A stretch of 64,000 bases of DNA from Bacillota bacterium (GTDB taxonomy: Bacteria > Bacillota > Clostridia > SK-Y3). The DNA lies in NCBI GenBank assembly GCA_022360955.1, contig JAKSBV010000309.1, forward strand, positions 6,053-70,052, in the 5' to 3' direction. Shown here piece by piece: positions 3,452 through 51,716 of the stretch. The stretch's first letter is position 1, and each line of letters begins with the position of its first letter. The notes beneath the pieces were generated by a model. It saw only the letters and a list, made by a program, of their open reading frames with translations, made no database searches and was not told the DNA's origin. Made by a program: the position numbers and the translations under genes.

Positions 3452-3480
3452 TAGTGGGGAGTGGGGGGTAGGGAGTGGGG
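3452..3480 (+). repeat. GGGGAGT-type purine word array, begins 1 nt after a stop codon
   Basis: TAGTGGGGAGTGGGGGGTAGGGAGTGGGG directly follows TAA at 3449-3451. Confidence 0.7.
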
Positions 3481-3491
3481 CGTCAAAAGGA

Positions 3492-6715: not shown

Positions 6716-8264
6716 TGATAGGCCCCCTTACTTTTTCCTGAAATTGTCCCGGTGTCATGTTGTACTTTCTTTTAAAAATTCGGATAAATTGTGAAGTGTC
6801 GTTATAACCGCACAATCCTGCTACGGACGTTACACTTAATGCCTTATCGCTCAATAATGCCCTTGCATTTTCCATACGGGCTTCCGTAAGATGATCCGTG
6901 TAATTTTTACCCGTTTTGTCTTTCAGCAAATGGCTTAAATAACTGCTGTTCAAAAAGAAGATATTCTCTGCAAGCTGTTTAAGTGAAATATTCTTATCAT
7001 AATTATTTCTAATATATTCCAAAACAAATTTTATAATAACATCGGTGGAAGACTTGTTCTCTGATTTTTGATAATCTATAATTTTGCCGAACCTTTCAAT
7101 CTTTTCTCTGAAAGATTGTATAATTTCTTCTACCGAATTATATTCCATTATGTTAAACGTTCTGTTAAAACGCGACAATTTTACCGGTAATGCCGATTGG
7201 CTGCCTGTCAGGATACCGGAAGTAATTTCATTTAAAACAATATTGATTTTATTGCCCATATCTTCAACACTATAGATGGAAATGTCCTTATGCCCGGCCG
7301 TATTCACCATGACATGCTCAATCATTTCATAGGTTCGGTGCATCATCCCCTGTTCAAGATATAACTTAAGCAGGACTGCTTCCCTGTGTCCAAAAATCGA
7401 TACATATTTTTCTCTTTTTTTGACGGTTTCATAGTAGTGCACATGATCACGATCTATCGCTTTATATTTTAAAGACAACATGGCCTCTTTGTAGGCCGTA
7501 TGGAGTTCCGAAAGTCCTTGATGTTCGCTGCTTATACCGGCATAATGTCCCTTTGAACTTTTGTCGAGAATGCTTAACACCTTCTCAGCAGACATGCACT
7601 CCCCTTCTCCTTTATTGTGCCTCAACAATAGGGTGTTCATGGTTTTATCGGTTTTTATCAGTTCACAACAAGGATTTTCACTTGCAAGGGTTGTAAGGAT
7701 ACCTGCATTTATCTCTTTTTTCTGTTTAAGCCCATTTGGAGACAGATCCTCATATATGACCATCAACGTATACCTCTTTAAAGACATATTTAATGCATGA
7801 TCGTGCTCATCGATGTAACGCATTGACGGACGGGTAATCCACTGATAAAGGCGATTTTTCATATCGAGCCGTGCATTTTGCAATTTTAATGCCTTCATGC
7901 TATCCATGGTCTGCTTTAATACTTTATAGAGTTCCTCCTGTTTAACAGGCTTTAGGATGTAGGAAGAAACCCCGTATTCCATAGCCCTTTTGGCATACTC
8001 AAATTCACCGTAACCGCTTATGATGCCCACATTGCATTGGGGATAATGTTTTTGTATCAATGAAGCAAGCTCCAGCCCATCAATATTAGGCATACGCACA
8101 TCAGTCAGAACAAGATCCGGAACCTGCTCATGAATACGGTCAAATGCACATTTCCCATCGGCTGCCTCCCTTATTATCATATCCTGGCTATCCTTCCACT
8201 CGCTTACCATTTTGACAAGGGATTTTCTTGCACAATCTTCATTTTCAACAATTAAAATGTTCAA
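6708..8264 (-). CDS. response regulator with AraC-type HTH output (YesN-like)
   Basis: receiver domain (LVLTDVRMPNIDG, YILKP) plus C-terminal AraC HTH (SVTSVAGLCGYNDTSQFIRIFKRKYNMTPGQF); TTG start behind GGAAGGTGA; 8-nt overlap with the downstream gene. Confidence 0.9.
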   Translation of the reverse strand: MNILIVENEDCARKSLVKMVSEWKDSQDMIIREAADGKCAFDRIHEQVPDLVLTDVRMPNIDGLELASLIQKHYPQCNVGIISGYGEFEYAKRAMEYGVSSYILKPVKQEELYKVLKQTMDSMKALKLQNARLDMKNRLYQWITRPSMRYIDEHDHALNMSLKRYTLMVIYEDLSPNGLKQKKEINAGILTTLASENPCCELIKTDKTMNTLLLRHNKGEGECMSAEKVLSILDKSSKGHYAGISSEHQGLSELHTAYKEAMLSLKYKAIDRDHVHYYETVKKREKYVSIFGHREAVLLKLYLEQGMMHRTYEMIEHVMVNTAGHKDISIYSVEDMGNKINIVLNEITSGILTGSQSALPVKLSRFNRTFNIMEYNSVEEIIQSFREKIERFGKIIDYQKSENKSSTDVIIKFVLEYIRNNYDKNISLKQLAENIFFLNSSYLSHLLKDKTGKNYTDHLTEARMENARALLSDKALSVTSVAGLCGYNDTSQFIRIFKRKYNMTPGQFQEKVRGPINE

Positions 8265-11707: not shown

Positions 11708-11752
11708 TTATACCCCAATCCTTTGTCTAAAGACACTATGCACCTCCCTAGA

Positions 11753-11952
11753 GGGTGTATAAATTCTGGGTGAAGAAAATTATTCCAACAACTGGTATTC
11801 CAAGGCTAAGACCCTGTAAGCTTGCGCCGGGCCGCAGCAAAACTCGCTATCGCTCAAACAGTTGCTGCTTCCTCCCTCTGCTTCGCTAACAGGCTCTAAG
11901 CCTTTCCATAAGGTCATTTCCATAATTTTCTTCACCTACACTAAATACACCC
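11753..11952 (-). mobile_element. F-element, complete short variant (beta end at left, alpha end at right)
   Basis: GGGTGTATAAATTCTGGGTGAAGAAAATTATTCCAACAACTGGTATTCCAAGGCTAAG ... GGTCATTTCCATAATTTTCTTCACCTACACTAAATACACCC; both ends match the ends of the copy at 46493-46728; the centre is a different palindromic stem. Confidence 0.7.
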
Positions 11953-11962
11953 CCTCTGCTTA

Positions 11963-12003
11963 GGTGTATAAATTCTGGTTGAAGAAAATCATTCCAACAA
12001 CTA
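11963..12003 (-). repeat. solo F-element beta terminal repeat, 3' of the Cas12f/TnpB-like gene
   Basis: GGTGTATAAATTCTGGTTGAAGAAAATCATTCCAACAACTA, near-identical to 11754-11794; similarity to other copies stops after CAACAACT. Confidence 0.7.
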
Positions 12004-12012
12004 TATGTCTGC

Positions 12013-12056
12013 AAAAAACAAACAGCCCTCAACAAGATCTCTCTTGTTGAGGGCTG
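12013..12056 (-). terminator. intrinsic terminator downstream of the Cas12f/TnpB-like gene
   Basis: minus strand CAGCCCTCAACAAG-agagat-CTTGTTGAGGGCTG followed by TTTGTTTTTT. Confidence 0.75.
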
Positions 12057-12182
12057 CCGTTACATTGGTCAGATAGCTGCATTTTCATGAACATGTTTAT
12101 GCCCATGCTTACGATGTAAGCTTCAATCCGCCGATAGGACCAATCCCTGCCGGCAGATCATGGTGCAGCAGCAATAACACCA
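12057..12182 (-). ncRNA. hypothetical guide-RNA/omega-RNA-like scaffold in the 3' UTR (unproven)
   Basis: ~125 nt between stop codon and terminator with local hairpins (GCTTAC-gat-GTAAGC 12107-12121; palindrome CTGCCGGCAG 12147-12156); position analogous to TnpB omega RNA. Confidence 0.2.
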
Positions 12183-13793
12183 TTAAATAATTTGTATCAG
12201 CCGATTCAAGTCCTCTGCGCTTTCGAGTTTTTTAATCAGGCTGTACTTTTTCTTAAAATCTTTATGCTTTGTATGTTCTTCAATATTAGTACGAAAATCT
12301 TGTATGATCCTTTCGATTTCATCCCAGAACTCATCCATACAGTGATTGGAATGGTTGGCATAGTAGTTCAGACCCAAGATTTTGTTTGTAAACTTTACAC
12401 CTTTCGGCGTGTTTTCCAGCTTCACTTTCACTGTGCCCTGATAGTGCTGATTCAATCTTCTAGCCAGATTTAAGCTGCCTAATTGTTCAATATCCATCGT
12501 TTTGCCACAAGTCACACATATAAACAGATCCCTGGAAAACCTATTTTGTCCGGTATGCATCCCGCATGCAGGACATGTATAAAAAATGCCCACCGGACTG
12601 ACTCTAATAGGAACAGGCAATCCTTTCTCCGTCAATTTATATTCCAATATTCTTATCAGCTCATTATAGCTGTAAGGGCTTAAAATCGGCATATAGCTTG
12701 TATTGTCCTGGTCTTTCCACTGCAATTTGTCTCCTTTATCATAGAGAGCCTGCATGACCACTTGTGACCGTTCCCGGCAGGCAATATTTACAATCGTATT
12801 GGCCAGTTTATGGATTTCATGCACCGGTAACGGGTAACTGCGGTTTTGTACCCCTGATATGCCGTTTATCAATAGGGCCCCGCTTTCGACCACCTGACTG
12901 TCCTGATCTGCCGCGGTATAATGCACGGGGCTTTTAAGCCCTCTTGCAATCCCCAAATATGTGGTAGTTTCTACCTTTTCAGCCTCTCCTATATCAATGC
13001 TGACGGATAAATAATACTCATTTTTCTTCTTAATAAGCCTTGCCGTTTTCAGCATTTCGGATTTATGCAAGGCCTGCTTCAAATACTTTTCCTGCCAGCG
13101 TCCAAAGGAAAGAGGCAGCAATATAAACCGTTCTTTTCTGCCCGTACTTTCCAACACTTTGGACTCTTTATGGATATAGGTTAGTTCTGCATCCTTTTGA
13201 CCGGGAATTGCTTTTCTGTTTTGATCTTTCACGTTCATCAGGTAAAGCTTTGCATAGTATTTATCATTTTTGCCGTCATACAACAAGCAATAATCCCGAT
13301 TGGTTGCATATCTGCAAAAAAATATCGGCTTAACGCTGGTGCTTTTTGCAATAATTCGCTTGATCTGCCGGTCACATTCATATAAAGGCTGGGCTTCATC
13401 GGTTAACCGTGCCATTGCGTTTTCATACTTGGCTTGCCATTTTTCCTCAGATAAATAGGCAATGGGATAATTGGCATACTGCTGAATCTCGCTTAAACTC
13501 AAATAACTCGCCAGCGTCATCCCAAAATCTATTTTTAACGCATCTTTAAAAGGCTGAACATCAAAGCGATTCAGCTCTTTGCTAAGCCCTTTATCCACCC
13601 ACTTTGCGATAAGGTTGGCCCTATAATTCCCTCTAGCATCCTTATAATCTCTACGGATGTCTTCAATATGCTTACAGGCCTTATCCAGCAGATATTGATA
13701 GGCGCGGGAGTAATTGAGCATCGCTCGCTCCATAATTTCGCGCTTCCGTTTACCGGGATTATGCAGTTTTAAAGTAATCGTCCGCATCGCCAT
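12183..13793 (-). CDS. Cas12f/TnpB-superfamily protein with substituted RuvC triad (predicted nuclease-dead RNA-guided DNA-binding protein)
   Basis: TITLKLHNPGKRK N-terminus, FGRWQ motif, GIARGLKSPV (RuvC-I with Ala for Asp), VVMQAL (RuvC-II with Gln for Glu), YTCPACG...FICVTCG zinc ribbon, DIEQLGSLNLARR (RuvC-III with Glu for Asp); ~89-aa C-terminal tail. Confidence 0.8.
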   Translation of the reverse strand: MAMRTITLKLHNPGKRKREIMERAMLNYSRAYQYLLDKACKHIEDIRRDYKDARGNYRANLIAKWVDKGLSKELNRFDVQPFKDALKIDFGMTLASYLSLSEIQQYANYPIAYLSEEKWQAKYENAMARLTDEAQPLYECDRQIKRIIAKSTSVKPIFFCRYATNRDYCLLYDGKNDKYYAKLYLMNVKDQNRKAIPGQKDAELTYIHKESKVLESTGRKERFILLPLSFGRWQEKYLKQALHKSEMLKTARLIKKKNEYYLSVSIDIGEAEKVETTTYLGIARGLKSPVHYTAADQDSQVVESGALLINGISGVQNRSYPLPVHEIHKLANTIVNIACRERSQVVMQALYDKGDKLQWKDQDNTSYMPILSPYSYNELIRILEYKLTEKGLPVPIRVSPVGIFYTCPACGMHTGQNRFSRDLFICVTCGKTMDIEQLGSLNLARRLNQHYQGTVKVKLENTPKGVKFTNKILGLNYYANHSNHCMDEFWDEIERIIQDFRTNIEEHTKHKDFKKKYSLIKKLESAEDLNRLIQII

Positions 13794-13812
13794 AAGAATC
13801 TTCCTTGTATCC

Positions 13813-13842
13813 AGTGGGGAGATAGGAGTAGGGGGTGGGGAG
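13813..13842 (+). repeat. GGGGAGT-type word array (G-rich on plus strand) in the 5' UTR region of the Cas12f/TnpB-like gene
   Basis: AGTGGGGAGATAGGAGTAGGGGGTGGGGAG; complementary in character to 13987-14023; contains hairpin GGGTGGG-gaga-CCCACCC at 13833-13850. Confidence 0.7.
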
Positions 13843-13914
13843 ACCCACCCTGTTCCTTTGCACTCCTGCTCCTCTTCACACTATAATCAAAATCCAAAAA
13901 ACAGATCACAATAA

Positions 13915-13944
13915 AATATACCACACTATTGTTTTACCATGCAA
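13915..13944 (-). promoter_or_regulatory. candidate sigma-A promoter for the Cas12f/TnpB-like gene
   Basis: minus strand TTGCAT (13944-13939), 18-nt spacer, TGgTATATT extended -10 (hexamer at 13920-13915). Confidence 0.4.
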
Positions 13945-13986
13945 GTATTATTCGTTGATAAGGGACAATGGGGTAAGAGCGAGGTT

Positions 13987-14023
13987 CTCACTCCCCGCTC
14001 CCCACACCTCACTCCCCACTAAC
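13987..14023 (-). repeat. GGGGAGT-type purine word array immediately 3' of adhE (purine-rich on the sense/minus strand)
   Basis: minus strand GTTAGTGGGGAGTGAGGTGTGGGGAGCGGGGAGTGAG, starting 6 nt after the adhE TAG. Confidence 0.7.
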
Positions 14024-14029
14024 AAACAC

Positions 14030-16633
14030 CTATTTCCCAAATGCTTTCACATATACTTCTTCAAGTTCTTTAACCAATGGTAGCCTCGGGTTAGCTGTGG
14101 TACACTGATCTTCGAAAGCTTTATCGGCCAGTTCGCCCACGTTTGCCATAAACAGCTTTTTATCCACGCCGCATTCCGCGATGGTCGCAGGTATATTAAC
14201 CGCTTTCATTAAATCTTTAATGGCTTTGATTAAGCTCTTAACCCCTTCTTCGACGGTTGAGGCCGGTAATCCCAGCGCTTTTGCGATTTCCGCATACTTC
14301 TTGTCCGCAATAAAGGTCTCATATTTGGGGAAAGATACAAACTTCGTCGGTTTCTGCGCATTATACGCTACGACGTGGGGCAGCAAAATAGCATTTGCTC
14401 TTCCGTGGGGGATATGATACTCTCCGCCCAATTTGTGTGCAAGGCTGTGATTGATGCCCAAGAATGCATTCGTAAAGGCCATTCCGGCGATACAGGACGC
14501 ATTGTGCATTTTTTCTCTTGCAACACGGTCATTCCCGTCTTTATAGGCCTTTGGCAGGTATTCAAATACCATTTGAATCGCCTTCATGGCCAAGGCATCG
14601 GTATAATCGGAAGCCAAAATCGAAACATAAGCTTCAATTGCGTGGGTTAATACATCCATACCCGTATCTGCGGTAACCGAAGCCGGTACTGTCATTACAA
14701 ACTCTGGATCTATAATGGCAACATCCGGGGTTAGTTCATAGTCCGCAAGGGGATATTTTACATTTTTCTGTTTATCTGTGATCACCGCAAAGGAAGTAAC
14801 CTCCGAACCCGTTCCCGATGTGGTGGGAATGGCCACCATTTTTGCTTTTTTGCCCAGTTTGGGGAATTTAAATACCCTTTTTCTAATGTCCATAAACTTC
14901 AGGCGTAAAGCATTAAAGTCCGTTTCAGGATGTTCATAGAACAACCACATGCCCTTAGCCGCGTCCATTGCAGAACCGCCGCCTAATGCAATAATCACAT
15001 CGGGCTGGAACTTATTCATTGCATCGCAGCCTTTCATAACCGTTTCTACCGATGGGTCCGGCTCTACTTCGGAGAATATTTCGCAGTGTACATATTGTTC
15101 TCTTTTTCTGAGATAGTACAGTACTTTATCCACATATCCCAATTTCACCATGTATGGGTCGGTAACAATCAGTGCTTTAGTGATATCGGGCATTTTTTCA
15201 AGATACTGTGTTGAACCGTATTCAAAGTAAATCTTTTCCGGAATCTTAAACCACTGCATATTTACTCTTCTCCTTGCCACTCTCTTTTTATTAATCAAAT
15301 TAACTGCCGATACGTTGGAAGTTGTGGAGTTTCTTCCGAAAGAGCCGCATCCCAGTGTCAATGACGGTATGTTGGTATTGTACAAATCTCCGATTGCACC
15401 ATGGGTAGAAGGTGAGTTAATAATCAGTCTGCCCGCTTTGATTCTCTTGGAGAAGGCTTCAATCACCTGCTGATTTTCGGAATGGATAACTGCCGAATGC
15501 CCCAAGCCTCCGAATTCAACCATTTCTTCCACCCGTTTAATCCCTTGTTCCGCATCTTTTACGACATAGTAGGCCAGTATCGGGCTTAATTTTTCCCGGG
15601 ATAACGGATATTCCGCTCCGACTCCTTCCAATTGTGCAATTAAAATCTTAGTATCTTTGGGTACGTTCAATCCGGCCATCTGCGCAATATTATATGCCGA
15701 CTGACCTACAACCGCAGCATTCATTACGCCTTTCTTTTCATCAATGGCAACTTTCTCTAATTTCGGAATTTCTTCTTTACTTAAAAAGTAGCACTGATGC
15801 TCTTTCATGAAGTTCTCAAATTCTTTGGAGATTTCTTTGTCTACAATCACGGCCTGTTCCGATGCACAGATCATACCATTGTCAAAGGTCTTGGACAGAA
15901 TAAGATCGGTAGCCGCTCTTTTCACATTGACCGATTTCTCAATATAGCACGGTACATTTCCAGGTCCTACGCCAAGTGCCGGCTTTCCGCTGCTATATGC
16001 CGCTTGCACCATCCCTGAACCGCCTGTTGCAAGTATCAATGCTACACTGGAATGGTTCATCAACGCCTGTGTCGCTTCCAGGGAAGGCTGCTCTATCCAT
16101 AAAATACAATCTTCCGGCGCCCCGGCGTCAATAGCCGCATCTCTTACCACACGCGCCGCTTCTGCACTGCACTTTTGCGCCGAAGGATGAAATGCAAATA
16201 TAATCGGGTTCCTGGTCTTCATTGCAATAATGCATTTAAACATGGTAGTGGACGTGGGATTGGTTACCGGGGTAACCCCTGCTACAACGCCTATCGGCTC
16301 CGCAACTTCTACATAATCCTCTAATTCGTTTTCATGGATGATCCCAACCGTCTTGTCATACTTAATGTTATTATAAATATATTCTGTTGCAAATATGTTT
16401 TTAGTGATTTTATCTTCATAGACCCCTCGTCCGGTTTCTTCAACAGCCATTTTCGCCAAACGCATATGGTCGTCCAAACCGGCCATCGCCATCGCTTTTA
16501 CAATCGCATCCACCTGATGCTGATCTAAAGCCATAAATTTATCTAACGCGATTTGTGCTTTTGAAACCAGCGTATCAACGGTTTGCTGTGCATTGTTTTC
16601 TTGTGGTTTTTGCTTGCTTACTTTTTCTGCCAT
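14030..16633 (-). CDS. adhE: bifunctional acetaldehyde-CoA / alcohol dehydrogenase
   Basis: 867 aa; N-terminal aldehyde dehydrogenase domain (catalytic Cys context NGMICASEQ) fused to an iron-type alcohol dehydrogenase (GGGSAMDAAK, HxxxH region). Confidence 0.97.
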   Translation of the reverse strand: MAEKVSKQKPQENNAQQTVDTLVSKAQIALDKFMALDQHQVDAIVKAMAMAGLDDHMRLAKMAVEETGRGVYEDKITKNIFATEYIYNNIKYDKTVGIIHENELEDYVEVAEPIGVVAGVTPVTNPTSTTMFKCIIAMKTRNPIIFAFHPSAQKCSAEAARVVRDAAIDAGAPEDCILWIEQPSLEATQALMNHSSVALILATGGSGMVQAAYSSGKPALGVGPGNVPCYIEKSVNVKRAATDLILSKTFDNGMICASEQAVIVDKEISKEFENFMKEHQCYFLSKEEIPKLEKVAIDEKKGVMNAAVVGQSAYNIAQMAGLNVPKDTKILIAQLEGVGAEYPLSREKLSPILAYYVVKDAEQGIKRVEEMVEFGGLGHSAVIHSENQQVIEAFSKRIKAGRLIINSPSTHGAIGDLYNTNIPSLTLGCGSFGRNSTTSNVSAVNLINKKRVARRRVNMQWFKIPEKIYFEYGSTQYLEKMPDITKALIVTDPYMVKLGYVDKVLYYLRKREQYVHCEIFSEVEPDPSVETVMKGCDAMNKFQPDVIIALGGGSAMDAAKGMWLFYEHPETDFNALRLKFMDIRKRVFKFPKLGKKAKMVAIPTTSGTGSEVTSFAVITDKQKNVKYPLADYELTPDVAIIDPEFVMTVPASVTADTGMDVLTHAIEAYVSILASDYTDALAMKAIQMVFEYLPKAYKDGNDRVAREKMHNASCIAGMAFTNAFLGINHSLAHKLGGEYHIPHGRANAILLPHVVAYNAQKPTKFVSFPKYETFIADKKYAEIAKALGLPASTVEEGVKSLIKAIKDLMKAVNIPATIAECGVDKKLFMANVGELADKAFEDQCTTANPRLPLVKELEEVYVKAFGK

Positions 16634-16786: not shown

Positions 16787-16804
16787 TTGTTAAATATTTA
16801 TCAA
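16787..16804. promoter_or_regulatory. Rex-like operator upstream of adhE
   Basis: TTGTTAAATATTTATCAA, 17 of 18 matches to TTGTTAAnnnnTTAACAA. Confidence 0.5.
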
Positions 16805-16826
16805 TCCCTATTATCATTATACGGCA

Positions 16827-16844
16827 TTGTTAAAATTTTGTCAA
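16827..16844. promoter_or_regulatory. weak Rex-like half-palindrome upstream of adhE
   Basis: TTGTTAAAATTTTGTCAA; good left half, poor right half. Confidence 0.3.
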
Positions 16845-17050: not shown

Positions 17051-18223
17051 CTAATAATACTCCATCCGGACTTCTTTCCCCATGCTTTCTAAACACTTGG
17101 CAATTTCTTTTACCAGCTTGAGCTTGATGCTCAAGTCCAAAGGAAGGTCCGGGTTCTGGTGGGCAGGGTTCATAGCCCTTCCAACAAAAAAATGTATCTT
17201 CGTGCCTTGCTCCAGCAAAATCTTCGCCATGCGGGAAGCACCGTCTTTTCGGTTTAGTTTGAGAATGTCTTTCATAGTACTTTGATCGGATTCATACATC
17301 TTTATATAGTCCAACGTTTTGCCCAAGGTCAGTACGCCCTCTGTGGCCAAATCTATGCCCTCTATTTCTGCGGTAGGCGGTATGGACGGATTAAAATAAT
17401 TAAAGTTTGTCACCATCGCCTTGCCCAATTCCCGGCTTACAATTTGTGAGGTCGTACCTCCGCACACAATTTTTTTGCCTTTTTCATCCATAAATCGGTT
17501 CACTACATAACGATCTTCGGACCTTTTCACCGGCGGTCCCACCATTACAGCCACTTGCAGCGGCTTCCTCACTTTGATGGCTACAACCGTAGTATCATCC
17601 CCGGGTTTTTGCATATATAGATTATCACAAACCGATAACAGCAGCTTTGCAATATTTTTTGCCGTCATTTCTTGTTTATACACCCTCTGAATATATTCTT
17701 TGACGTTATCCCACTGCCATCCTAAATTCAAGGTTCCTCCGATACCCGCGTGCATGACACCGTCACTGGTCATAATAAACATATCCCCGGGTACAACAGT
17801 GAACCGGCTCTCATTAATCACTTTGCCGTGAATGTTCCGCTGCTGCTTTTGCAGATCGGCAAAACAACCTTTTCTCACGAAAAATACGGAAGGATTGTCG
17901 AATTCCACCAGGTATGCATCACCCGTATTAAAAATCTGCAATATGGAAAACGTTGAATATGCGATCCCTCTTTCCTTACACTCCGGCAGCGTACTGGCAA
18001 TCGTTTCTACCGCTTCCTCGATATTTTCGCCGTTCACCAGCATTGTGCCTATAATCTTACTTGTCAGTGTGGCCAATATATTGGCTTTTACACCACTGCC
18101 CAATCCATCGGCCAGTACGACAATGACAGATTTTTCATTTCGCATGATTTCGATTTTATCACCGCATAATTCTTCATTGTATTTGTTCAAGCTTTCAAAG
18201 CTTGTTTCGACAAATAAGCTCAT
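17051..18223 (-). CDS. PP2C/SpoIIE-family serine phosphatase
   Basis: ELCGDKIEI...VLADGLGSGVKANILA and TSDGVMHAG motifs; ATGA overlap with the upstream hydrogenase-like gene. Confidence 0.85.
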   Translation of the reverse strand: MSLFVETSFESLNKYNEELCGDKIEIMRNEKSVIVVLADGLGSGVKANILATLTSKIIGTMLVNGENIEEAVETIASTLPECKERGIAYSTFSILQIFNTGDAYLVEFDNPSVFFVRKGCFADLQKQQRNIHGKVINESRFTVVPGDMFIMTSDGVMHAGIGGTLNLGWQWDNVKEYIQRVYKQEMTAKNIAKLLLSVCDNLYMQKPGDDTTVVAIKVRKPLQVAVMVGPPVKRSEDRYVVNRFMDEKGKKIVCGGTTSQIVSRELGKAMVTNFNYFNPSIPPTAEIEGIDLATEGVLTLGKTLDYIKMYESDQSTMKDILKLNRKDGASRMAKILLEQGTKIHFFVGRAMNPAHQNPDLPLDLSIKLKLVKEIAKCLESMGKEVRMEYY

Positions 18224-19941
18224 TTGTCCTCCCCTGCGTCCGCTAAAATTGAATGTTTAAGGTTGGTAAGCGCCATCTTGGTCTCTGCCGTTGTCTCTCC
18301 TAGCAGACTGGCGATTTCCTGTGCTACACGCATCTGCTTTTCAATGACCTTCTGAGCAATATCGACTGTTTCCGAACGCATCTTATACAATTGCCGCTGC
18401 TGTTTTTCTTCTTTGGACACATCTCTAATAAGGGCAATGATCAATTGTTGATCTTTAATGTATAGAATAGACTGTTCTACGGTCTTATTATATTTTTCAT
18501 AGTAGTATTTTCTATTCAAAATATTTTCGCCGGTCTCTTGGACACATTCAAAATCGGAACAATCCAATACATTATATATATGTTTTCCTACGATATCCTC
18601 TTGCCCTAATCGGAAAAGCTGTTGTGCCGCCGGGTTGAAAGTCTGTATACATAATTCCTCATTCAAGGCCAGAATCGCATTGGGTGTCGAATGTATAATG
18701 ATATTTGAAATAGATTCCGCCCTCTCTCTCATATAGGGCAAACACATGTGCAATTCCGCTTTATGGTGATATACGGCAATAGCTTTTTCTCTACAGGTGG
18801 AGTATCCGCAAGCACCGCAGTTCAGCTCTTTTGCCTGACTCGACTTCCCTATTTTGCCGAGTATTTCCCTTATTGTCTCTTCATCGGGCATGGGATAATT
18901 TTTGGACCTGTCGACAAAATGCTTGGATAAATCGACATTGATATCCGCAGCCACGGTGAGCTTTCCGTCTTTTCGACTGCTTTTTACATACTCAATCAGT
19001 TTTTCCCTCGCCTTTAACAAACCGCCCTTAATCGGTTTGATGCAGGAACCTCCCAGGCAGCTTCCCTCACATGCATTCATCTCAACAAAATGTTCGGTGA
19101 TTTCGCCTTCTGCCATTGCGCCCAAGACGTGTATGCACCGCTCTATGCCGTCTATGCTTACACATCTGTATTTTGTGCCTCTGTCCTTGCTCAATGTTTT
19201 GATAATGCCGCCGGGCGCCGGATAAAATCTCGCGATTTCATTTTTAAAGCCCTTTATCTCTCCGGCATTGTCGGCGTCCAAATCGACACCTTCACTTTCC
19301 ATCCAATCGGCCAGTTCTTCAAAAGTAATAATGGCATCTACTGCGCCTTCGTGCTGCAAATCGTTGCACTCCGCCTTTTTAGACAAACAGGGCCCTATAA
19401 ACACCACTTTGATTCTTGGTCCATAGACTGCACGCATCATTTTGGCATGTGCGATCATAGGCGATACAACCGGGGCCATTTGTTCAATGAGCACCGGATA
19501 ATATCTTTCAATTAATGAAACAGCCGTGGGACATGCCGTCGTGATGATATTCTTCATTTGACCCTGCTTTAAAAGCCTTTGATATTCTTTTGTTACCTGG
19601 GCCGCACCTATCGCCGTTTCTTCCACATGGGTAAAACCCCAATTTTTTAAAACCGCAAATATTTTTCTGTTATCCTGCATTGAGAAAACTGAAACAAAGG
19701 AAGGTGCAAGACTGACATACACCTTTTCTTTCTTCTCTATATAGGCCTTGACTTTGTCAATATCACTTCGGACACTCTTTGCATTCTGCGGACATACCCG
19801 CAAACACTTGCCGCACAATACGCATTCATCCTCTACGATTTGCGCCTGTTCTTCATTAAAAGTGATGGCATTCACGGGGCAGCTGCGAATACATTTATAA
19901 CAATTTTTGCAATTAGCCTTTTTAAATCGAATAATCCCCAC
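18220..19941 (-). CDS. sensory-type [FeFe]-hydrogenase-like protein with PAS domain (HydS-like, group C)
   Basis: two N-terminal 4Fe-4S ferredoxin motifs; H-cluster motifs TTACPTAV (Ala in place of the proton-relay Cys), GPCLSKKAE, EMNACEGSCLGGS; extra CGACGYSTC...C cluster motif; C-terminal PAS. Start set at GTG 19941 behind GGGGAGG. Confidence 0.85.
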   Translation of the reverse strand: MGIIRFKKANCKNCYKCIRSCPVNAITFNEEQAQIVEDECVLCGKCLRVCPQNAKSVRSDIDKVKAYIEKKEKVYVSLAPSFVSVFSMQDNRKIFAVLKNWGFTHVEETAIGAAQVTKEYQRLLKQGQMKNIITTACPTAVSLIERYYPVLIEQMAPVVSPMIAHAKMMRAVYGPRIKVVFIGPCLSKKAECNDLQHEGAVDAIITFEELADWMESEGVDLDADNAGEIKGFKNEIARFYPAPGGIIKTLSKDRGTKYRCVSIDGIERCIHVLGAMAEGEITEHFVEMNACEGSCLGGSCIKPIKGGLLKAREKLIEYVKSSRKDGKLTVAADINVDLSKHFVDRSKNYPMPDEETIREILGKIGKSSQAKELNCGACGYSTCREKAIAVYHHKAELHMCLPYMRERAESISNIIIHSTPNAILALNEELCIQTFNPAAQQLFRLGQEDIVGKHIYNVLDCSDFECVQETGENILNRKYYYEKYNKTVEQSILYIKDQQLIIALIRDVSKEEKQQRQLYKMRSETVDIAQKVIEKQMRVAQEIASLLGETTAETKMALTNLKHSILADAGEDK

Positions 19942-19942
19942 G

Positions 19943-20188
19943 CTATAACCTCCCCAGAATACACTCTTTGAACTTTTCTTCAACATTCGATACCGTAATC
20001 CCTTCAATGAAGTCGTTTTCTACCTTGACGGAAACACCCTGCGTACAATGTCCCAGACAAAAAGAAGCCTTTAGTTCAATCTTCTGCTCCAGTCCGTATT
20101 CCTTTATAAGCCTTTGGAATGTTTGTATAATGTGATGGGAACCTTTTAGGTGACATGAGCTCCCCACACATATATAAACCTGCAGCAT
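19943..20188 (-). CDS. thioredoxin-like [2Fe-2S] ferredoxin domain protein
   Basis: CVGSSC...CLGHC cysteine pattern (NuoE/HndA-like); start at ATG 20188 behind GGGGGTG. Confidence 0.7.
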   Translation of the reverse strand: MLQVYICVGSSCHLKGSHHIIQTFQRLIKEYGLEQKIELKASFCLGHCTQGVSVKVENDFIEGITVSNVEEKFKECILGRL

Positions 20189-20231: not shown

Positions 20232-20249
20232 TTGTTAAATATTTAACGA
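20232..20249. promoter_or_regulatory. Rex-like operator upstream of the ferredoxin/HydS/PP2C operon
   Basis: TTGTTAAATATTTAACGA, 17 of 18 matches to TTGTTAAnnnnTTAACAA; 44 bp upstream of the first start codon. Confidence 0.55.
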
Positions 20250-20402
20250 TTATTATTATAAAATACTGTTAAATCATTGTCAATGACATAGAAACTATTA
20301 TTGATACGGTTTTTGTATAAATTATTATTTAGATACGGTTTTTCAAGCAAAAACACCCCACTTCTTCAGGCAGGGTAATTGATCTCATTATAAAAATCAA
20401 AT

Positions 20403-20750
20403 TTAATCAAAAAATTTCCCCTTATAAAAATTCTCATTGCCAAGTTTCTTTGCCGTCAGTCTGAACATGACGCAGCCATCTGGACATACAATGTCCTTGC
20501 TATATTTATCATTGCCGCCAATGTTCTCTAAATCTCCGCCACTTCTAACCGACTCCATGATTGGGAACATACTCATCATAACCTTGGAACAGATACCTTG
20601 TCCATCCGAATTTGTGGGACAGCCATAGGTGCAGGTATACTTATCCCCCACTTCCTCACCGTTTCGGCAGTACCGCTCTGTGCGGTCACTGCGAAGAAAC
20701 CCAGTTACCTCAATCTCAAATTCGTACTCCTCATCATACCATTTTTTCAT
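20403..20750 (-). CDS. TIGR04076-like small cysteine-rich protein
   Basis: GDKYTCTYGCP...ICSKVMMSMFPIMESVRSGGDL...VCPDGCVMFRL pattern as remembered for TIGR04076; strong RBS GGAGG. Confidence 0.55.
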   Translation of the reverse strand: MKKWYDEEYEFEIEVTGFLRSDRTERYCRNGEEVGDKYTCTYGCPTNSDGQGICSKVMMSMFPIMESVRSGGDLENIGGNDKYSKDIVCPDGCVMFRLTAKKLGNENFYKGKFFD

Positions 20751-22198: not shown

Positions 22199-22501
22199 TA
22201 TCATTCTATGGACCGGAGATCGGAGGTCAGAAGGCGGAGGTCGGAATCTGACCCAACAGGAGCACAAAGTAATCAACAGCAAGGTGGCATGAACGGTAGG
22301 CGGTTCATTCTCACCCCTCATCTCTCAGCCCTCAACTACTTTTTAGCCTTGGAATATCAGTTGTTGGATACTGAACTTTAAAATTGAATTTATATTTGAA
22401 CAAACAATGTAGAACCCTCATTGTTTGTTTAAATGAATTTTAAGGTATAAAGTTCGGTATCTTTGTTGGAATCATTTTCTTCACCCAGCATTTATACACC
22501 C
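22199..22501 (+). mobile_element. F-element lacking a recognisable alpha terminus and interrupted by a MITE-A copy
   Basis: arm1 GGAGATCGGAGGTCAGAAGGCGGAGGTCGGAAT, core CAGGAGCACAAAGTAATCAACAGCAAGGTGG, arm2 ...CTCTCAGCCCTCAAC and beta repeat TTGTTGGAATCATTTTCTTCACCCAGCATTTATACACCC align with 46493-46728. Confidence 0.7.
22367..22464. mobile_element. MITE-A repeat nested inside the F-element beta repeat
   Basis: GATACTGAACTTTAAAA ... ATAAAGTTCGGTATC splits CCTTGGAATATCAGTTGTTG / TTGTTGGAATCATTTTC, which is contiguous in the copy at 46676-46705. Confidence 0.75.
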
Positions 22502-27860: not shown

Positions 27861-27863
27861 TTA

Positions 27864-27888
27864 TTAGTGGGGAGTGAGGAGTGGGGTG
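27864..27888 (+). repeat. GGGGAGT-type purine word array 3 nt after a stop codon
   Basis: TTAGTGGGGAGTGAGGAGTGGGGTG following TAG at 27858-27860. Confidence 0.7.
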
Positions 27889-46438: not shown

Positions 46439-46490
46439 GACGCCAATCGTCACTTAAAACGGCTGGCGTCTTGATCTTTTTGCTTTTTTC
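46439..46490 (+). terminator. possible terminator of the small plus-strand ORF
   Basis: GACGCCA ... TGGCGTC (7-bp stem, 18-nt loop) followed by TTGATCTTTTTGCTTTTTT. Confidence 0.35.
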
Positions 46491-46492
46491 AC

Positions 46493-46728
46493 GGGTGTAT
46501 TCAGTGTAGGTGAAGAAATTTATGGAAATGACCTTATATACCGGAGGTCGGAGATCAGAGGGCGGAAGTCGGAATATAACCAAACAGGGACGCAAAGTAA
46601 TCATAGACAAGCGTATCGTAAATGGTGGGTGGTCCATTCTCACCTCTCATCTCTCAGCCCTCAACTATTTTTTAGCCTTGGAATATCAGTTATTGGAATA
46701 ATTTTCTTCACTTCAAATTTATGTGCCC
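46493..46728 (+). mobile_element. F-element, complete copy with 9-bp target-site duplication
   Basis: alpha end GGGTGTATTCAGTGTAGGTGAAGAAATTTATGGAA, beta end (reverse complement) GGGCACATAAATTTGAAGTGAAGAAAATTATTCCAA; flanked by TTTTTTCAC at 46484-46492 and 46729-46737. Confidence 0.85.
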
Positions 46729-48026: not shown

Positions 48027-48058
48027 TTAGTGGGGAGTAGGGAGTGGGGAGTGGGGAG
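48027..48058 (+). repeat. GGGGAGT-type word array (four G-runs) upstream of ybaB
   Basis: TTAGTGGGGAGTAGGGAGTGGGGAGTGGGGAG. Confidence 0.7.
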
Positions 48059-48168
48059 TTGTTGTGTCCCCCATAATACCCGGACTGCCTATCCCAAATC
48101 ATCTGAATCACTATTTTATACTATAATAACGTATATGCATAAATCTCTCAAGTATTAATTGCATGAAA

Positions 48169-51443: not shown

Positions 51444-51716
51444 GGCCGTACACCCTTTCTCGAATTATCTTCATATGCGTTACTCCTGCAGTTAGCTCAG
51501 ACCAGGCACCCTCACGGCACACGAAGGGGTTCGCTTATCGCTGCTTCGTTCCCGACCTGACGAGGTTCACGAGTCTCCGTTGCGTAAGACCCAATCTTCA
51601 TCACCACTTACAAAAGCCGGACCATACAAAAAATAACCCTCAAAAGAGCATTCACCCTTGCTATAGCGGATTGCAAGTACAGGGCACCGCTACCTCCCCG
51701 GCTAGTACGACCAAAA
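51444..51716 (-). ncRNA. ffs: signal recognition particle RNA, long Bacillus-type (scRNA)
   Basis: minus strand GGTCGTACTAGCCGGGGAGGTAGCGGTGCCCTGTAC (Alu domain) and GTCAGGTCGGGAACGAAGCAGC (domain IV) closely parallel B. subtilis scRNA as remembered; T-run after the 3' end. Confidence 0.9.

What the first reader, a model, noticed from the sequence alone, without database searches (positions are those of the whole stretch)
12183..13793. Naturally nuclease-dead Cas12f/TnpB-like protein (RuvC D-E-D reads A-Q-E) with no CRISPR array or transposase
Seen: an uninterrupted 536-codon ORF with its own promoter-like elements and terminator.

By-eye alignment to the Cas14a1/Un1Cas12f1 sequence as I remember it:
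- ILLPLSFGRWQEKYLK aligns with IIKIPFGRWQVKKEIDK.
- RuvC-I: LSVSIDIGEAEKVETTTYLGIARGLKSPV aligns with LNLSIDVPKIDKGVDPSIIGGIDVGVKSPL. This puts Ala at the catalytic Asp (D326 in Un1Cas12f1, from memory).
- RuvC-II: SQVVMQALYDK aligns with GTVQMENLESM, putting Gln at the catalytic Glu.
- The CxxC...CxxC zinc ribbon is retained (YTCPACG...FICVTCG).
- RuvC-III: CVTCGKTMDIEQLGSLNLARR aligns with CEKCNFKENADYNAALNISNP, putting Glu at the catalytic Asp (D510).
- About 89 extra residues follow RuvC-III, a helical-looking tail absent from Cas12f.

Established: Cas12f and TnpB need this triad for DNA cleavage. Naturally inactivated relatives (Cas12k in CAST systems, TnpB-like TldR repressors) act as RNA-guided DNA binders.

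Inference: this is a domesticated RNA-guided DNA-binding protein, acting as a regulator or in element targeting. It sits between adhE and a sugar ABC operon. At 536 aa with a novel tail it is larger than the TldR proteins I know of. It is also associated with a TIR/TSD-type repeat family rather than IS200/IS605 ends.
Basis: partly seen in the sequence, partly recalled or inferred. Interest (0 to 1): 0.9.

Follow-up and report, generated by a model that had tools for sequence, protein, structure and literature searches.

The report
Nuclease-dead TnpB in hydrogen-sensing operon
This gene encodes a naturally inactivated relative of the CRISPR enzyme Cas12f that keeps its partner RNA, is the last gene of a conserved operon with a hydrogen-sensor-like protein and a phosphatase, and probably acts as that sensor's gene switch; the protein family was already described by computer analysis in 2023 but has never been tested.

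Summary
The ORF is real (12183-13793, minus strand, 536 aa) with a Cas12f/TnpB fold. Across 118 homologues RuvC-I is never Asp. All 81 loci have intact ORFs, dN/dS is 0.05-0.19, and the sister clade keeps D-E-D.

It is not a new family. It belongs to the "SpoIIE-TnpB" clade of Altae-Tran et al. 2023 (PNAS), described only computationally.

New here:
1. A pseudoknotted RNA supported by covariation, about 80-120 nt long (118 nt here), lies directly 3' of the gene. There is one copy per locus, in 78 of 80 loci. It ends in UAUCU(R)A and runs almost at once into a terminator, so there is no normal-length guide.
2. A DNA element, AAAAACC(G)TATCTAATAAT, lies 55-57 nt (and 25-26 nt) upstream of the -35 box of hydrogenase-operon promoters, including this operon's own.
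3. The element's core equals the RNA end, and both switch C to T in one clade.

Best reading: a short-seed RNA-guided transcription factor that is the output of an H2-sensing pathway. This is inferred, not shown. The flanking TIR repeats are genome-specific and incidental.

The parts
12183..13793 (-). CDS of the nuclease-dead TnpB/Cas12f-like protein (536 aa). RuvC positions are A283, Q348 and E436. R284 is invariant, lid-insertion D355 is present in 117/118 sequences, the zinc ribbon is C407/C410/C426/C429, and the extra C-terminal domain spans about residues 447-536.
   Evidence: ORF; Pfam and NCBIfam; PDB sequence and profile alignments; column counts over 118 homologues; AlphaFold pLDDT 90.7 and Foldseek Cas12f hits; dN/dS 0.05-0.19.
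12067..12184 (-). Conserved omegaRNA-like scaffold directly 3' of the stop codon. It has a 5' stem whose loop (GCUGC) pairs with the 3' GCAGC to form a pseudoknot, a variable hairpin, a conserved hairpin (GCUUAC-AUC-GUAAGC) and a further variable hairpin.
   Evidence: nhmmer and MAFFT conservation; 67-sequence alignment A2; covariation score 0.294 against 0.170 for shuffles (0 of 500 reach it) and at most 0.092 for slid controls; covariance model hit of 63 bits, E=7e-16, the only hit in the window; one hit per locus in 78 of 80 loci; no Rfam family.
12069..12075 (-). UAUCUGA, the conserved nucleotides just after the pseudoknot strand (family consensus UAUCU[A/G]A). This is the candidate short fixed guide or seed.
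   Evidence: Position counts after AGCUAU are C72/78, U75/78 and A52+G23 of 78. It is identical to the core of the DNA element. RNA and DNA both switch C to U/T in Caproiciproducens.
12021..12058 (-). Intrinsic terminator hairpin (17 pairs) with a T-run, 8 nt after the end of the covariance-model match (about 10 nt after UAUCUGA).
   Evidence: Terminator scan; fold. In relatives the stems change by compensatory substitutions, so they are selected as hairpins. The median linker is 6 nt.
14030..16633 (-). adhE (bifunctional aldehyde/alcohol dehydrogenase), inserted between the PP2C gene and the dead-nuclease gene. It occupies the same position in 9 loci from divergent lineages.
   Evidence: ORF; Pfam families of the identical-length gene in L081; cluster c10 and gap sizes of 13-100 nt.
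17051..18223 (-). SpoIIE-type PP2C phosphatase (390 aa) with an uncharacterised C-terminal half.
   Evidence: Pfam PF07228, E=5e-17. It lies directly upstream of the dead-nuclease gene in 74 of 81 loci, with a median gap of 38 nt.
18220..19941 (-). HydS-type sensory [FeFe]-hydrogenase-like protein (573 aa): Fer4 clusters, Fe_hyd_lg_C, an FeS domain and a PAS domain.
   Evidence: Pfam; present in 76 of 81 loci.
19943..20188 (-). Small thioredoxin-like [2Fe-2S] protein (81 aa), the first gene of the operon.
   Evidence: Pfam PF01257, E=3e-8; the same gene is called in L081 and L082.
20323..20346 (-). Cis-element site A, TTGAAAAACCGTATCTAAATAATA. It holds the only perfect CCGTATCTAA in the 64-kb window, and its CCG lies 55 nt upstream of the -35 hexamer.
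   Evidence: Pattern search; weight-matrix score of 26.8 bits against a next-best 11.9 elsewhere; fixed spacing across loci.
20294..20317 (-). Cis-element site B, TACAAAAACCGTATCAATAATAGT. It is a weaker tandem copy 29 nt downstream of site A by these coordinates (30 nt between the two copies in L003 and L005), with its CCG about 25 nt upstream of the -35 hexamer.
   Evidence: Sequence; 9.9 bits; the same tandem arrangement occurs in L003, L005 and L081.
20232..20283 (-). Predicted operon promoter, TTGACA (20283-20278), a 17-nt spacer and TATAAT (20260-20255), followed by a Rex-operator-like palindrome TCGTTAAATATTTAACAA (20249-20232).
   Evidence: Read from the sequence and from the hexamer search. 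The likeness to a Rex box rests on my own knowledge of the clostridial Rex consensus TTGTTAANNNNTTAACAA.

Best explanation
WHAT IT IS (shown). The gene encodes a member of the non-mobile, nuclease-dead 'SpoIIE-TnpB' clade of Cas12f/TnpB-like proteins. It is the last gene of a conserved operon: small 2Fe-2S protein, HydS (a PAS-containing sensory [FeFe]-hydrogenase), a SpoIIE/PP2C phosphatase, adhE in some lineages, then the dead nuclease. A single pseudoknotted omegaRNA-like RNA, about 80-120 nt long (118 nt here), follows the gene.

HOW IT MOST LIKELY WORKS (inferred). The protein and its RNA form a ribonucleoprotein that binds DNA without cutting it. It recognises the element AAAAACC(G)|TATCTAATAAT. 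The protein reads the A-rich/CC flank in a TAM-like way. The first 5-9 RNA nucleotides after the pseudoknot (UAUCURA) pair with the TATCTAA core. The guide is therefore short and hard-wired rather than programmable, because a terminator hairpin follows within a median of 6 nt.

The element sits at fixed positions, with its CCG 55-57 nt and, where a second copy exists, 25-26 nt upstream of the -35 hexamer. These are canonical sigma-A-type promoters that also carry Rex-like boxes. They head hydrogenase operons: the module's own operon, hydCBA-type bifurcating hydrogenase operons, monomeric hydA operons and a small Cys-rich gene. This geometry points to modulation of RNA polymerase recruitment, most simply activation, rather than promoter occlusion.

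HydS would sense H2 or redox state, and the PP2C phosphatase would relay the signal to the ribonucleoprotein. The extra C-terminal domain and the invariant Arg284/Asp355 pair are candidate interfaces. The ribonucleoprotein would thus be the missing DNA-binding output of the H2-sensing pathway that tunes hydrogenase and adhE expression.
For: Identity:
- Fold and homology.
- RuvC-I is S60/A30/C14/T9/G4/V1 and never D; R284 is invariant; D355 is present in 117 of 118.
- The sister clade keeps D 29/31, E 30/31 and D 28/31, and lacks the C-terminal domain.
- 81 of 81 ORFs are intact and dN/dS is 0.05-0.19.
- All this matches the published description of SpoIIE-TnpB.

Context:
- PP2C lies directly upstream in 74 of 81 loci and HydS in 76 of 81.
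- adhE sits inside the operon in 9 loci with gaps of 13-100 nt.

RNA:
- Covariation supports the pseudoknotted scaffold.
- There is exactly one copy per locus, always 3' of the gene, in 78 of 80 loci, including 11 loci not used to build the model.

Cis-element:
- 34 weight-matrix hits, 33 on the operon strand and 30 intergenic, where intergenic DNA is about 11% of the sequence.
- The spacing to the -35 hexamer is fixed at 55-57 nt or 25-26 nt.
- The window has a single strong site, in the hydS-operon promoter.

RNA-DNA link:
- The core TATCTRA equals the RNA's post-pseudoknot nucleotides.
- In Caproiciproducens both RNA (UAUUUA) and DNA (CCATATTTA) carry T at the same position. Over all loci the pairs are TATCT/TATCT 22, TATTT/TATTT 3 and TATCT/TATTT 1.

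Physiology:
- Deleting the HydS homologue hfsB raises adhE expression by an unknown route (PMC5707799).
- The module encodes no other candidate DNA-binding protein.
Against: - No experiment shows DNA binding, RNA binding or regulation.
- RNA-DNA identity is only 5-9 nt. Each locus's own RNA matches its own site barely better than other loci's RNAs do (6.07 against 5.61 contiguous matches, p about 0.03 strict, not significant when wobble pairs are allowed).
- The C-to-T covariation is a single clade and so a single evolutionary event.
- The element was found in only 28 of 80 loci within the +-6 kb held. Ruminiclostridium and Christensenella loci show none.
- DNA positions 6-11 (AATAAT) are conserved, but the matching RNA positions are not, so part of the element must be read by protein or by another factor.
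- A seed of 5-7 nt is shorter than any characterised TnpB, TldR or Cas12 guide (9-16 nt).
- Altae-Tran et al. note an apparent loss of the bridge helix that normally contacts the RNA-DNA duplex.
- Activation as opposed to repression is inferred from geometry alone.
- No kinase partner for the PP2C phosphatase is conserved in the neighbourhood.
Confidence: 0.5

Rival explanations
1. TldR-like repressor. The ribonucleoprotein binds the same element but lowers transcription. It could block an UP-element or an activator site, or act as a roadblock at targets elsewhere in the genome that I could not see.
For: Every experimentally characterised TnpB-derived factor that lacks a sigma partner is a repressor. 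Deleting the HydS homologue hfsB raises adhE expression, which fits a repressing pathway. Autoregulatory sites upstream of the factor's own operon are common for repressors.
Against: The sites lie upstream of the -35 hexamer at fixed, helically phased distances of 55-57 and 25-26 nt, and do not overlap the -35, the -10 or the start site. A separate Rex-like operator already occupies the repressor position after the -10.
Confidence: 0.17
2. The DNA element belongs to an unrelated, unidentified transcription factor. The dead nuclease and its RNA do something else. They might act as an RNA-protein scaffold that regulates, or is regulated by, the PP2C phosphatase, with the terminator hairpin filling the guide channel and no DNA targeting at all.
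For: In many loci only 0-7 nt separate the scaffold from a stable hairpin. The hairpin stems evolve by compensatory change. Searches for ordinary guide-target matches were negative. Own-RNA to own-site specificity is marginal. The bridge helix is reported lost, and a protein-protein interface with SpoIIE is predicted.
Against: The element's core is identical to the RNA end over 5-9 nt, and the two co-vary in one clade. The element accompanies this module's own promoter. No other DNA-binding protein is conserved in the module.
Confidence: 0.22
3. The protein keeps some enzymatic activity through a rearranged site, the invariant Arg284 paired with lid Asp355. It would act as an RNA-guided nuclease, nickase or RNA-processing enzyme rather than as a pure binder.
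For: R284 is invariant and D355 is present in 117 of 118 sequences. About 41% of members (48 of 118) keep Glu at RuvC-II and about 91% (107 of 118) keep Glu or Asp at RuvC-III. Altae-Tran et al. raise this possibility.
Against: The RuvC-I Asp is essential in all studied RuvC nucleases (established knowledge). It is replaced here by Ser, Ala, Cys, Thr or Gly without exception. RuvC-II drifts freely between Gln, Glu, Tyr and His, as expected for a relaxed former catalytic position. The Arg is inherited from the active sister clade's GVDRG motif, so its conservation need not mean new chemistry.
Confidence: 0.06
4. A decaying transposon relic or pseudogene with no function.
For: It is annotated as 'putative transposase' or 'zinc ribbon domain-containing protein' in public records. 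It is flanked by MITE-like repeats in this genome.
Against: 81 of 81 loci have intact ORFs of 479-561 aa, and dN/dS is 0.05-0.19. Each of the 80 loci comes from a different assembly, and the operon context is conserved. No tnpA is present. The repeats are absent from all other loci.
Confidence: 0.01

Closest known systems
SpoIIE-TnpB clade (Altae-Tran et al. 2023, PNAS; PMC10691335)
   Same: Every published feature matches. [quoted passage not shown]
   Different: Nothing in the protein differs; this is a member. In this window adhE separates it from the phosphatase. Several points were not found in the parts of that paper I read or in my literature searches: the RNA structure and its near-absent guide, the identification of the hydrogenase as a PAS-containing sensor (HydS type), and the promoter element with its spacing and its match to the RNA end.
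TldR, TnpB-like nuclease-dead repressors (Wiegand et al.; 10.1101/2023.11.30.569447 and 10.64898/2026.09.22.753285)
   Same: Both are domesticated nuclease-dead TnpB relatives with an adjacent guide RNA. Both have short guides (9-11 nt in the oppF clade), conserved rather than variable targets in promoter regions, and fixed associations with host genes.
   Different: The lineages differ: Altae-Tran et al. derive this clade from a Cas12-like intermediate and the TldRs directly from mobile TnpB. This protein is larger (about 480-560 aa) and has an extra C-terminal domain. Its partners are HydS and PP2C rather than oppF or fliC. The candidate seed is only 5-9 nt. The sites lie upstream of the -35 hexamer at fixed phase instead of overlapping the promoter.
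dCas12f-sigmaE RNA-guided transcription system of Bacteroidota (PMC13472631)
   Same: Both are nuclease-dead Cas12f-like proteins derived from a CRISPR effector, with a guide RNA encoded 3' of the gene, autoregulation of their own operon plus control of a small regulon, and target sites upstream of transcription start sites.
   Different: There is no rpoE partner here. The promoters have ordinary -35 and -10 hexamers. The flank-to-start distance is about 90 or 60 bp rather than 46 bp. The guide would be 5-9 nt rather than 14-16 nt. The partner is a phosphatase plus a sensor rather than a sigma factor.
HydS/HfsB sensory [FeFe]-hydrogenase signalling modules (R. albus HydS; T. saccharolyticum hfs operon, PMC5707799)
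   Same: Both have a PAS-containing hydrogenase-like sensor encoded with Ser/Thr phospho-signalling genes next to hydrogenase genes, and a reported regulatory link to adhE and ethanol formation whose DNA-level effector is unknown.
   Different: According to the paper I read (PMC5707799), those modules involve a kinase, or a kinase plus a phosphatase. I did not check them for a TnpB-like gene (Thermoanaerobacterium is not among the 80 loci). The module here ends in a dead Cas12f-like ribonucleoprotein.

Membership tests
SpoIIE-TnpB clade (Altae-Tran 2023) | TnpB/Cas12f fold with a zinc-ribbon (TNB) domain | tested here: met
   PF07282; Foldseek hit to AsCas12f at E=7e-17 with a model of pLDDT 90.7; four invariant Cys.
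SpoIIE-TnpB clade (Altae-Tran 2023) | Canonical RuvC site inactivated, with a conserved Arg in RuvC-I and a conserved Asp in an insertion (the lid) after RuvC-II | tested here: met
   Position 283 is never D; R284 is present in 118 of 118; D355 in 117 of 118, inside a segment that is a gap in the Cas12f and TnpB alignments. The spatial pairing of Arg and Asp was not checked because no coordinates were available.
SpoIIE-TnpB clade (Altae-Tran 2023) | Distinct extra C-terminal domain | tested here: met
   89-93 residues follow RuvC-III, against 9-55 in the sister clade. The region is modelled as beta-strands plus helices and has no Pfam match.
SpoIIE-TnpB clade (Altae-Tran 2023) | [quoted passage not shown] | tested here: met
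   PP2C in 74 of 81 loci and a HydS-like gene in 76 of 81. In the window they lie at 17051-18223 and 18220-19941, with adhE between them and the gene. All 80 loci come from different assemblies of Clostridia-type genomes.
SpoIIE-TnpB clade (Altae-Tran 2023) | Neighbouring non-coding region encoding an omegaRNA-like RNA | tested here: met
   A structured RNA with covariation support lies 3' of the gene in 78 of 80 loci.
SpoIIE-TnpB clade (Altae-Tran 2023) | [quoted passage not shown] | not testable with these tools
   No multimer prediction was available.
TldR (TnpB-like nuclease-dead repressors) | Nuclease-dead TnpB homologue with an adjacently encoded guide RNA | tested here: met
TldR (TnpB-like nuclease-dead repressors) | A guide of at least 9 nt complementary to a TAM-flanked site within a promoter | tested here: inconclusive
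   Identity between the RNA end and the conserved element is 5-9 nt. One covarying position was found. No longer matches were found.
TldR (TnpB-like nuclease-dead repressors) | Binding overlaps promoter elements or the 5' UTR and represses transcription | tested here: not met
   The candidate sites lie 25-26 and 55-57 nt upstream of the -35 hexamer. Repression itself cannot be tested here.
TldR (TnpB-like nuclease-dead repressors) | Membership of the described oppF-, fliC- or flagellin/csrA-associated clades | tested here: not met
   The neighbours are HydS, PP2C and hydrogenase genes. No oppF, fliC, flgL or csrA appears among the conserved clusters.
dCas12f-sigmaE RNA-guided transcription system | Adjacent extracytoplasmic-function sigma factor gene (rpoE) | tested here: not met
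   No sigma factor appears among the conserved neighbours.
dCas12f-sigmaE RNA-guided transcription system | A 14-16-nt guide, and a promoter-independent transcription start 46 bp downstream of the TAM | tested here: not met
   At most 5-9 nt of identity. Canonical -35 and -10 hexamers sit at a fixed 55-57 nt from the flank. Reference values come from PMC13472631.
Mobile IS200/IS605 or IS607 TnpB | tnpA or a serine recombinase partner, LE/RE ends, multiple copies per genome, intact D-E-D triad | tested here: not met
   No transposase neighbour; fixed synteny; triad lost.
Type V CRISPR effector (Cas12f, or Cas12k in CAST systems) | An adjacent CRISPR array, and for Cas12k Tn7-like tnsB/tnsC/tniQ genes | tested here: not met
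   No array in the window. There is a single RNA copy per locus and no repeats of it. No Tn7-like genes appear among the neighbours.

The most novel reading that the evidence does not exclude
This would be a third mode of RNA-guided transcription control. A dead Cas12f-like ribonucleoprotein has a guide reduced to a hard-wired seed of 5-9 nt. It binds at phased positions upstream of ordinary sigma-A promoters and is switched by a sensory [FeFe]-hydrogenase through a PP2C phosphatase. That would make it the long-sought DNA-binding output of bacterial H2 sensing in Clostridia, controlling hydrogenase genes and, in some lineages, adhE.
Probability: 0.35. Interest if true: 0.85.

Novelty: new member of a known kind. 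Interest (0 to 1): 0.62.

Why it matters
If the model holds, two open problems meet here.

1. How do HydS-type sensory [FeFe]-hydrogenases pass their signal to gene expression? This has been unclear since they were first noticed. The reported effect of hfsB deletion on adhE and ethanol yield has no known effector. A ribonucleoprotein encoded in the same operon, together with a defined promoter element, gives a directly testable circuit.

2. How far can an RNA-guided DNA binder be reduced? A domesticated Cas12f-like protein that relies on a fixed seed of 5-9 nt plus protein-read flanks, and that is controlled by phospho-signalling, would extend the known range (TldR repressors, dCas12f-sigmaE activators).

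There are practical angles too. These are hydrogen- and ethanol-producing, cellulose-degrading Clostridia, so the circuit bears on metabolic engineering. It could also yield a compact, signal-responsive DNA-binding scaffold.

The protein family itself was already reported. The interest lies in its mechanism and regulon, not in its existence.

Tried and rejected
1. Ordinary guide-target search. I looked for exact matches of at least 11 nt between the 25-45 nt after the scaffold and the +-6 kb of each locus. The result was 12 loci against 3-9 in swapped controls, and 25 against about 19. There is no enrichment.

2. Seed-anchored search. I tested 9- and 10-nt seeds at every offset from -8 to +30, restricted to intergenic DNA. 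There is no convincing signal, apart from a faint excess at offsets -5 to 0, which led to the cis-element.

3. The 11-mer CAGCCCTCAAC. This is the 5' arm of the window's terminator, and it recurs at 22326, 45156 and 46655. I rejected it as a target. Two of the sites (22326 and 46655) lie in copies of a genome-specific MITE-like repeat, and the third (45156) looks by eye like a diverged copy. All three sit next to unrelated genes for a K+ channel, BofA, DUF2508 and RecR.

4. Near-matches of the linker sequence in the closest relatives, and matches to adhE promoters. Nothing was found.

5. An apparent hydA match in L050 and L052. It does not co-vary in sister species, so it is chance.

6. A 19-nt match in L020 between sequence downstream of the scaffold and the region just upstream of hydS. 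It is degenerate in the sister locus L015 and is not seen elsewhere. It remains unexplained.

7. Using the synteny break with the 98%-identical relative L081 to define the RNA's 3' edge. Homology runs on through the MITE and breaks at its outer end, so the comparison is uninformative.

8. Own-RNA against own-site swap test. The result was only marginal.

9. Rfam at gathering and at permissive thresholds. No family matches the RNA.

10. HMMER's single-sequence alignment placed the RuvC-II Glu opposite K360. I rejected this in favour of Q348 after the profile alignment and the secondary-structure register.


Full report
**1. The observation**

The window holds an uninterrupted 536-codon ORF at 12183-13793, on the minus strand. 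Pfam finds the Cas12f1-like TNB zinc-ribbon domain (PF07282, E=1.8e-7). NCBIfam finds the guided_TnpB model (E=2.6e-17, below its curated cutoff) and weaker Cas12e and C2c8 matches. phmmer against PDB sequences hits a solved TnpB (9nzp, E=1.5e-7) and AsCas12f. An AlphaFold2 model built on 118 homologues is confident (mean pLDDT 90.7). Its best Foldseek matches in the PDB are all Cas12f, CasX, Cas12k, TnpB or dCas12f structures, led by AsCas12f 7wju at E=7e-17.

- HMMER aligns the query 'giArG' with 'gvDlG'.
- A family profile aligns 'vi-v[E/Q]kl' with the Cas12f and TnpB 'iqmEdL' strand, and 'iE..GSLN' with 'aD..asfN'.
- HMMER's single-sequence alignment had placed the RuvC-II Glu in the following insertion.

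The terminator is real (12058-12021, minus strand, 17 pairs). No sigma70-like promoter was found on the minus strand between adhE and the gene. There is no CRISPR-like array in the window.

**2. The family**

A word-indexed search found 162 homologues, nearly all full length (about 480-550 aa), from Clostridia such as Petroclostridium, Caloramator, Pseudobacteroides, Ruminiclostridium, Christensenella and Caproiciproducens. Across 118 aligned sequences:
- The RuvC-I position is S60/A30/C14/T9/G4/V1 and never Asp.
- It is followed by an invariant Arg.
- RuvC-II is Q52/E48 plus a few Tyr and His.
- RuvC-III is E65/D42.
- An Asp in the insertion after RuvC-II (D355) is present in 117 of 118.
- The four zinc-ribbon cysteines are invariant.

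An exhaustive profile search of 1.84 billion representatives found 161 clusters at E<=1e-30. Below E of about 1e-57 the matches stop at profile position 425 or so. These sister proteins keep D (29/31), E (30/31) and D (28/31) and have only 9-55 residues after RuvC-III, against 89-93 in the family.

All 81 loci carry an intact reading frame, and 13 pairwise comparisons give dN/dS of 0.05-0.19. The family is therefore a selected, domesticated derivative of active nucleases, not a pseudogene.

**3. It is already described**

Altae-Tran et al. 2023 (PMC10691335) describe a 'SpoIIE-TnpB' clade. It is non-mobile, found in diverse Clostridia, and adjacent to an uncharacterised type V branch. [quoted passage not shown] It has a lid insertion over the active site, a conserved RuvC-I Arg paired with a lid Asp, a distinct C-terminal domain, a neighbouring non-coding region that could encode an omegaRNA-like RNA, and a predicted interface with the phosphatase. 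The authors proposed a role in transcription regulation. Every sequence-level feature matches this gene. A full-text search found no other paper that combines these terms. The clade appears uncharacterised experimentally in the library I could search.

**4.

I clustered the ORFs of the 80 related loci plus the window.
- A SpoIIE/PP2C phosphatase lies directly upstream in 74 of 81 loci, with a median gap of 38 nt.
- A [FeFe]-hydrogenase-like protein with Fer4, Fe_hyd_lg_C, FeS and PAS domains lies upstream of that in 76 of 81 loci. This is the architecture of sensory hydrogenases (HydS/HfsB).
- A small thioredoxin-like 2Fe-2S gene often heads the operon.
- Bifurcating-type hydCBA genes or monomeric hydA genes commonly flank the module.

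In the window the order on the minus strand is:
- 2Fe-2S protein, 19943-20188
- HydS, 18220-19941
- PP2C, 17051-18223
- adhE, 14030-16633
- the dead nuclease, 12183-13793

adhE occupies this position in 9 loci from divergent lineages, with gaps as small as 13-33 nt, so it is part of the operon there. Independently, deletion of the HydS homologue hfsB in Thermoanaerobacterium raises adhE expression by an unexplained route (PMC5707799).

**5. The RNA**

The 115 nt or so directly after the stop codon are conserved even where the proteins are only about 40% identical. The upstream region is not conserved. In 67 aligned scaffolds the proposed structure has three parts:
- a 5' stem;
- a pseudoknot between that stem's loop (GCUGC) and the 3' GCAGC;
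- a conserved internal hairpin.

The structure is 82% paired. Its covariation score is 0.294, against 0.170 for column shuffles (0 of 500 reach it) and at most 0.092 for slid controls. The internal hairpin is 94% paired, with compensatory changes at 5 of 6 pairs. The pseudoknot pair G-C becomes A-U in 11 sequences with no mispairs.

A covariance model finds exactly one copy in the 64-kb window (12067-12184, minus strand, 63 bits, filters off). It finds one copy per locus in 78 of 80 loci, always 3' of the gene on the same strand, including 11 loci not used to build the model. Rfam has no matching family.

After the pseudoknot strand the RNA reads UAUCU(A/G)A. It then runs into a stable hairpin with a T-rich tail after a median of 6 nt (range 0-23). 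Among close relatives these hairpins change by compensatory substitution, so they are selected as structures. There is thus no room for a conventional 14-20-nt guide.

**6. Target searches**

Conventional searches for guide-target matches were negative. An 11-nt match of the window's terminator arm to three sites in the window is best explained by a genome-specific repeat family.

Seeds that start inside the conserved UAUCU end did reveal a DNA element, consensus AAAAACC(G/T/A)TATCTAATAAT.
- A weight matrix finds 34 hits of at least 14 bits in the 80 loci plus L081, L082 and the window. Of these, 33 are on the operon strand and 30 are intergenic, where intergenic DNA is about 11% of the sequence.
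- The hits fall upstream of four kinds of unit: the hydS operon, hydCBA-type operons, monomeric hydA operons headed by a small Cys-rich gene, and another small Cys-rich gene.
- The element's CCG lies 55-57 nt upstream of a -35 hexamer in more than 20 sites. Second, tandem copies lie 25-26 nt upstream.
- A palindrome resembling the clostridial Rex operator follows the -10 hexamer in many of these promoters. The Rex comparison rests on my own knowledge.

In the window the only perfect CCGTATCTAA is at 20338-20329 on the minus strand. It scores 26.8 bits, against 11.9 for the next-best site anywhere in the window. A weaker tandem copy follows about 30 nt downstream. Then come TTGACA, a 17-nt spacer, TATAAT and a Rex-like box, upstream of the 2Fe-2S/hydS operon.

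**7. Does the RNA read the element?**

The element's core TATCTRA equals the RNA's first nucleotides after the pseudoknot. In Cas12 and TnpB RNAs this is where the guide begins (established architecture). Contiguous identity between each locus's RNA and its own site is 5-9 nt, or up to 11 nt if G-T wobble is allowed.

A swap test shows only marginal locus-specific matching: 6.07 against 5.61 contiguous matches, p about 0.03 strict, and not significant with wobble. Any pairing is therefore confined to the family-conserved seed.

One covariation event supports pairing. Caproiciproducens loci, whose RNA reads UAUUUA, have a perfectly conserved element AAAAACCATATTTATAAT upstream of hydS. Over all intergenic, operon-strand elements the RNA/DNA pentamer pairs are TATCT/TATCT 22, TATTT/TATTT 3 and TATCT/TATTT 1. 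Because one clade is one event, this is supportive but not decisive.

The element was detected in 28 of 80 loci. In several clades the first promoter of the hyd cluster probably lies beyond the 6 kb held.

**8. Mechanism**

Shown:
- a nuclease-dead Cas12f/TnpB-like protein under purifying selection;
- a dedicated structured RNA;
- a fixed operon with a sensory hydrogenase and a PP2C phosphatase;
- a phased promoter element upstream of hydrogenase operons, whose core matches the RNA end.

Inferred:
- the ribonucleoprotein binds that element through a protein-read flank and a short hard-wired RNA seed;
- the position upstream of the -35 hexamer implies modulation of RNA polymerase recruitment, most simply activation;
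- HydS and PP2C control it in response to H2 or redox state.

The geometry differs from TldR repressors, whose sites overlap promoters and whose guides are 9-11 nt. It also differs from dCas12f-sigmaE, which initiates 46 bp from the TAM without promoter hexamers and uses 14-16-nt guides.

The main rival reading is that the element belongs to another factor and the ribonucleoprotein has a role that does not involve DNA targeting. I cannot exclude this.

**9. The repeats**

The MITE-like element at 11750-12003 and the inverted repeat at 13800-14029 recur elsewhere in the window but match none of the 80 other loci. The 98%-identical relative L081 shares the MITE, and its synteny with the window breaks exactly at the MITE's outer end. 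The repeats mark genome rearrangement in this lineage. They are not a property of the gene family.

**10. Verdict**

The protein is a new member of a family already described by computation. The added value here is the defined RNA, the near-absence of a guide, the hydrogen-sensor context, and a candidate regulon with a specific, testable binding site.

Noticed in passing
window 11750-12003; related copies near 22340-22500, 46490-46725 and 420-456: A MITE-like element with 34-nt terminal inverted repeats, plus an extra 40-nt solo end. It belongs to a dispersed repeat family in this genome. The synteny break between the window and the 98%-identical relative L081 falls exactly at the element's outer end (about 11752), which suggests that the repeats mediate rearrangements.
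   Followed up: partly
window 13800-14029; also 3452-3483, 27861-27886, 48027-48059: Heptamer arrays, (AGTGGGG)n or the complement (CACTCCC)n, form an imperfect inverted repeat (13813-13842 / 13991-14020) between the adhE stop codon and the start of the dead-nuclease gene. Similar arrays lie elsewhere in the window. Their function is unknown, and they are absent from the other 80 loci.
   Followed up: partly
window 16787-16844 (minus strand): adhE has its own strong promoter, TTGACA (16844-16839), a 17-nt spacer and TATAAT (16821-16816), followed by a Rex-operator-like palindrome TTGATAAATATTTAACAA (16804-16787). It has no copy of the AAAAACCGTATCT element.
   Followed up: partly
L020:2880-2898 and L020 about 7604-7622; L015:2965-3010: In Candidatus Clostridium stratigraminis, a 19-nt stretch (CCACATGAGTTATTACTTA) lying 22 nt after the RNA scaffold is repeated exactly about 60 nt upstream of hydS, just after a TATAAT. 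The sister species has a degenerate version. No explanation was found, and it is not seen in other clades.
   Followed up: partly
L081:11022-11723 (relative GCA_028280005.1): In the closest relative, the DNA downstream of the module carries an HTH protein and a Cas6-family gene instead of the sugar ABC transporter seen in the window. I did not examine whether a CRISPR-Cas system lies there.
   Followed up: no
loci L016, L024, L029, L033 (c15); L074-L077 (c23); L018, L026, L027, L031, L037, L047 (c9): Small Cys-rich proteins of 90-125 aa with no Pfam match head monomeric hydA operons or stand alone just downstream of the RNA. Each is preceded by the AAAAACCNTATCT element at the same distance from its promoter. 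They may be unrecognised members of the hydrogenase regulon.
   Followed up: partly
window 20403-20750 (minus strand): A 115-aa Cys-rich ORF with no Pfam match lies just upstream of the element and promoter of the hydS operon. It is conserved in L081 and L082.
   Followed up: no
window 51446-51710 (minus strand): Bacterial large SRP RNA (Rfam RF01854, 218.8 bits). It is an ordinary housekeeping gene.
   Followed up: no
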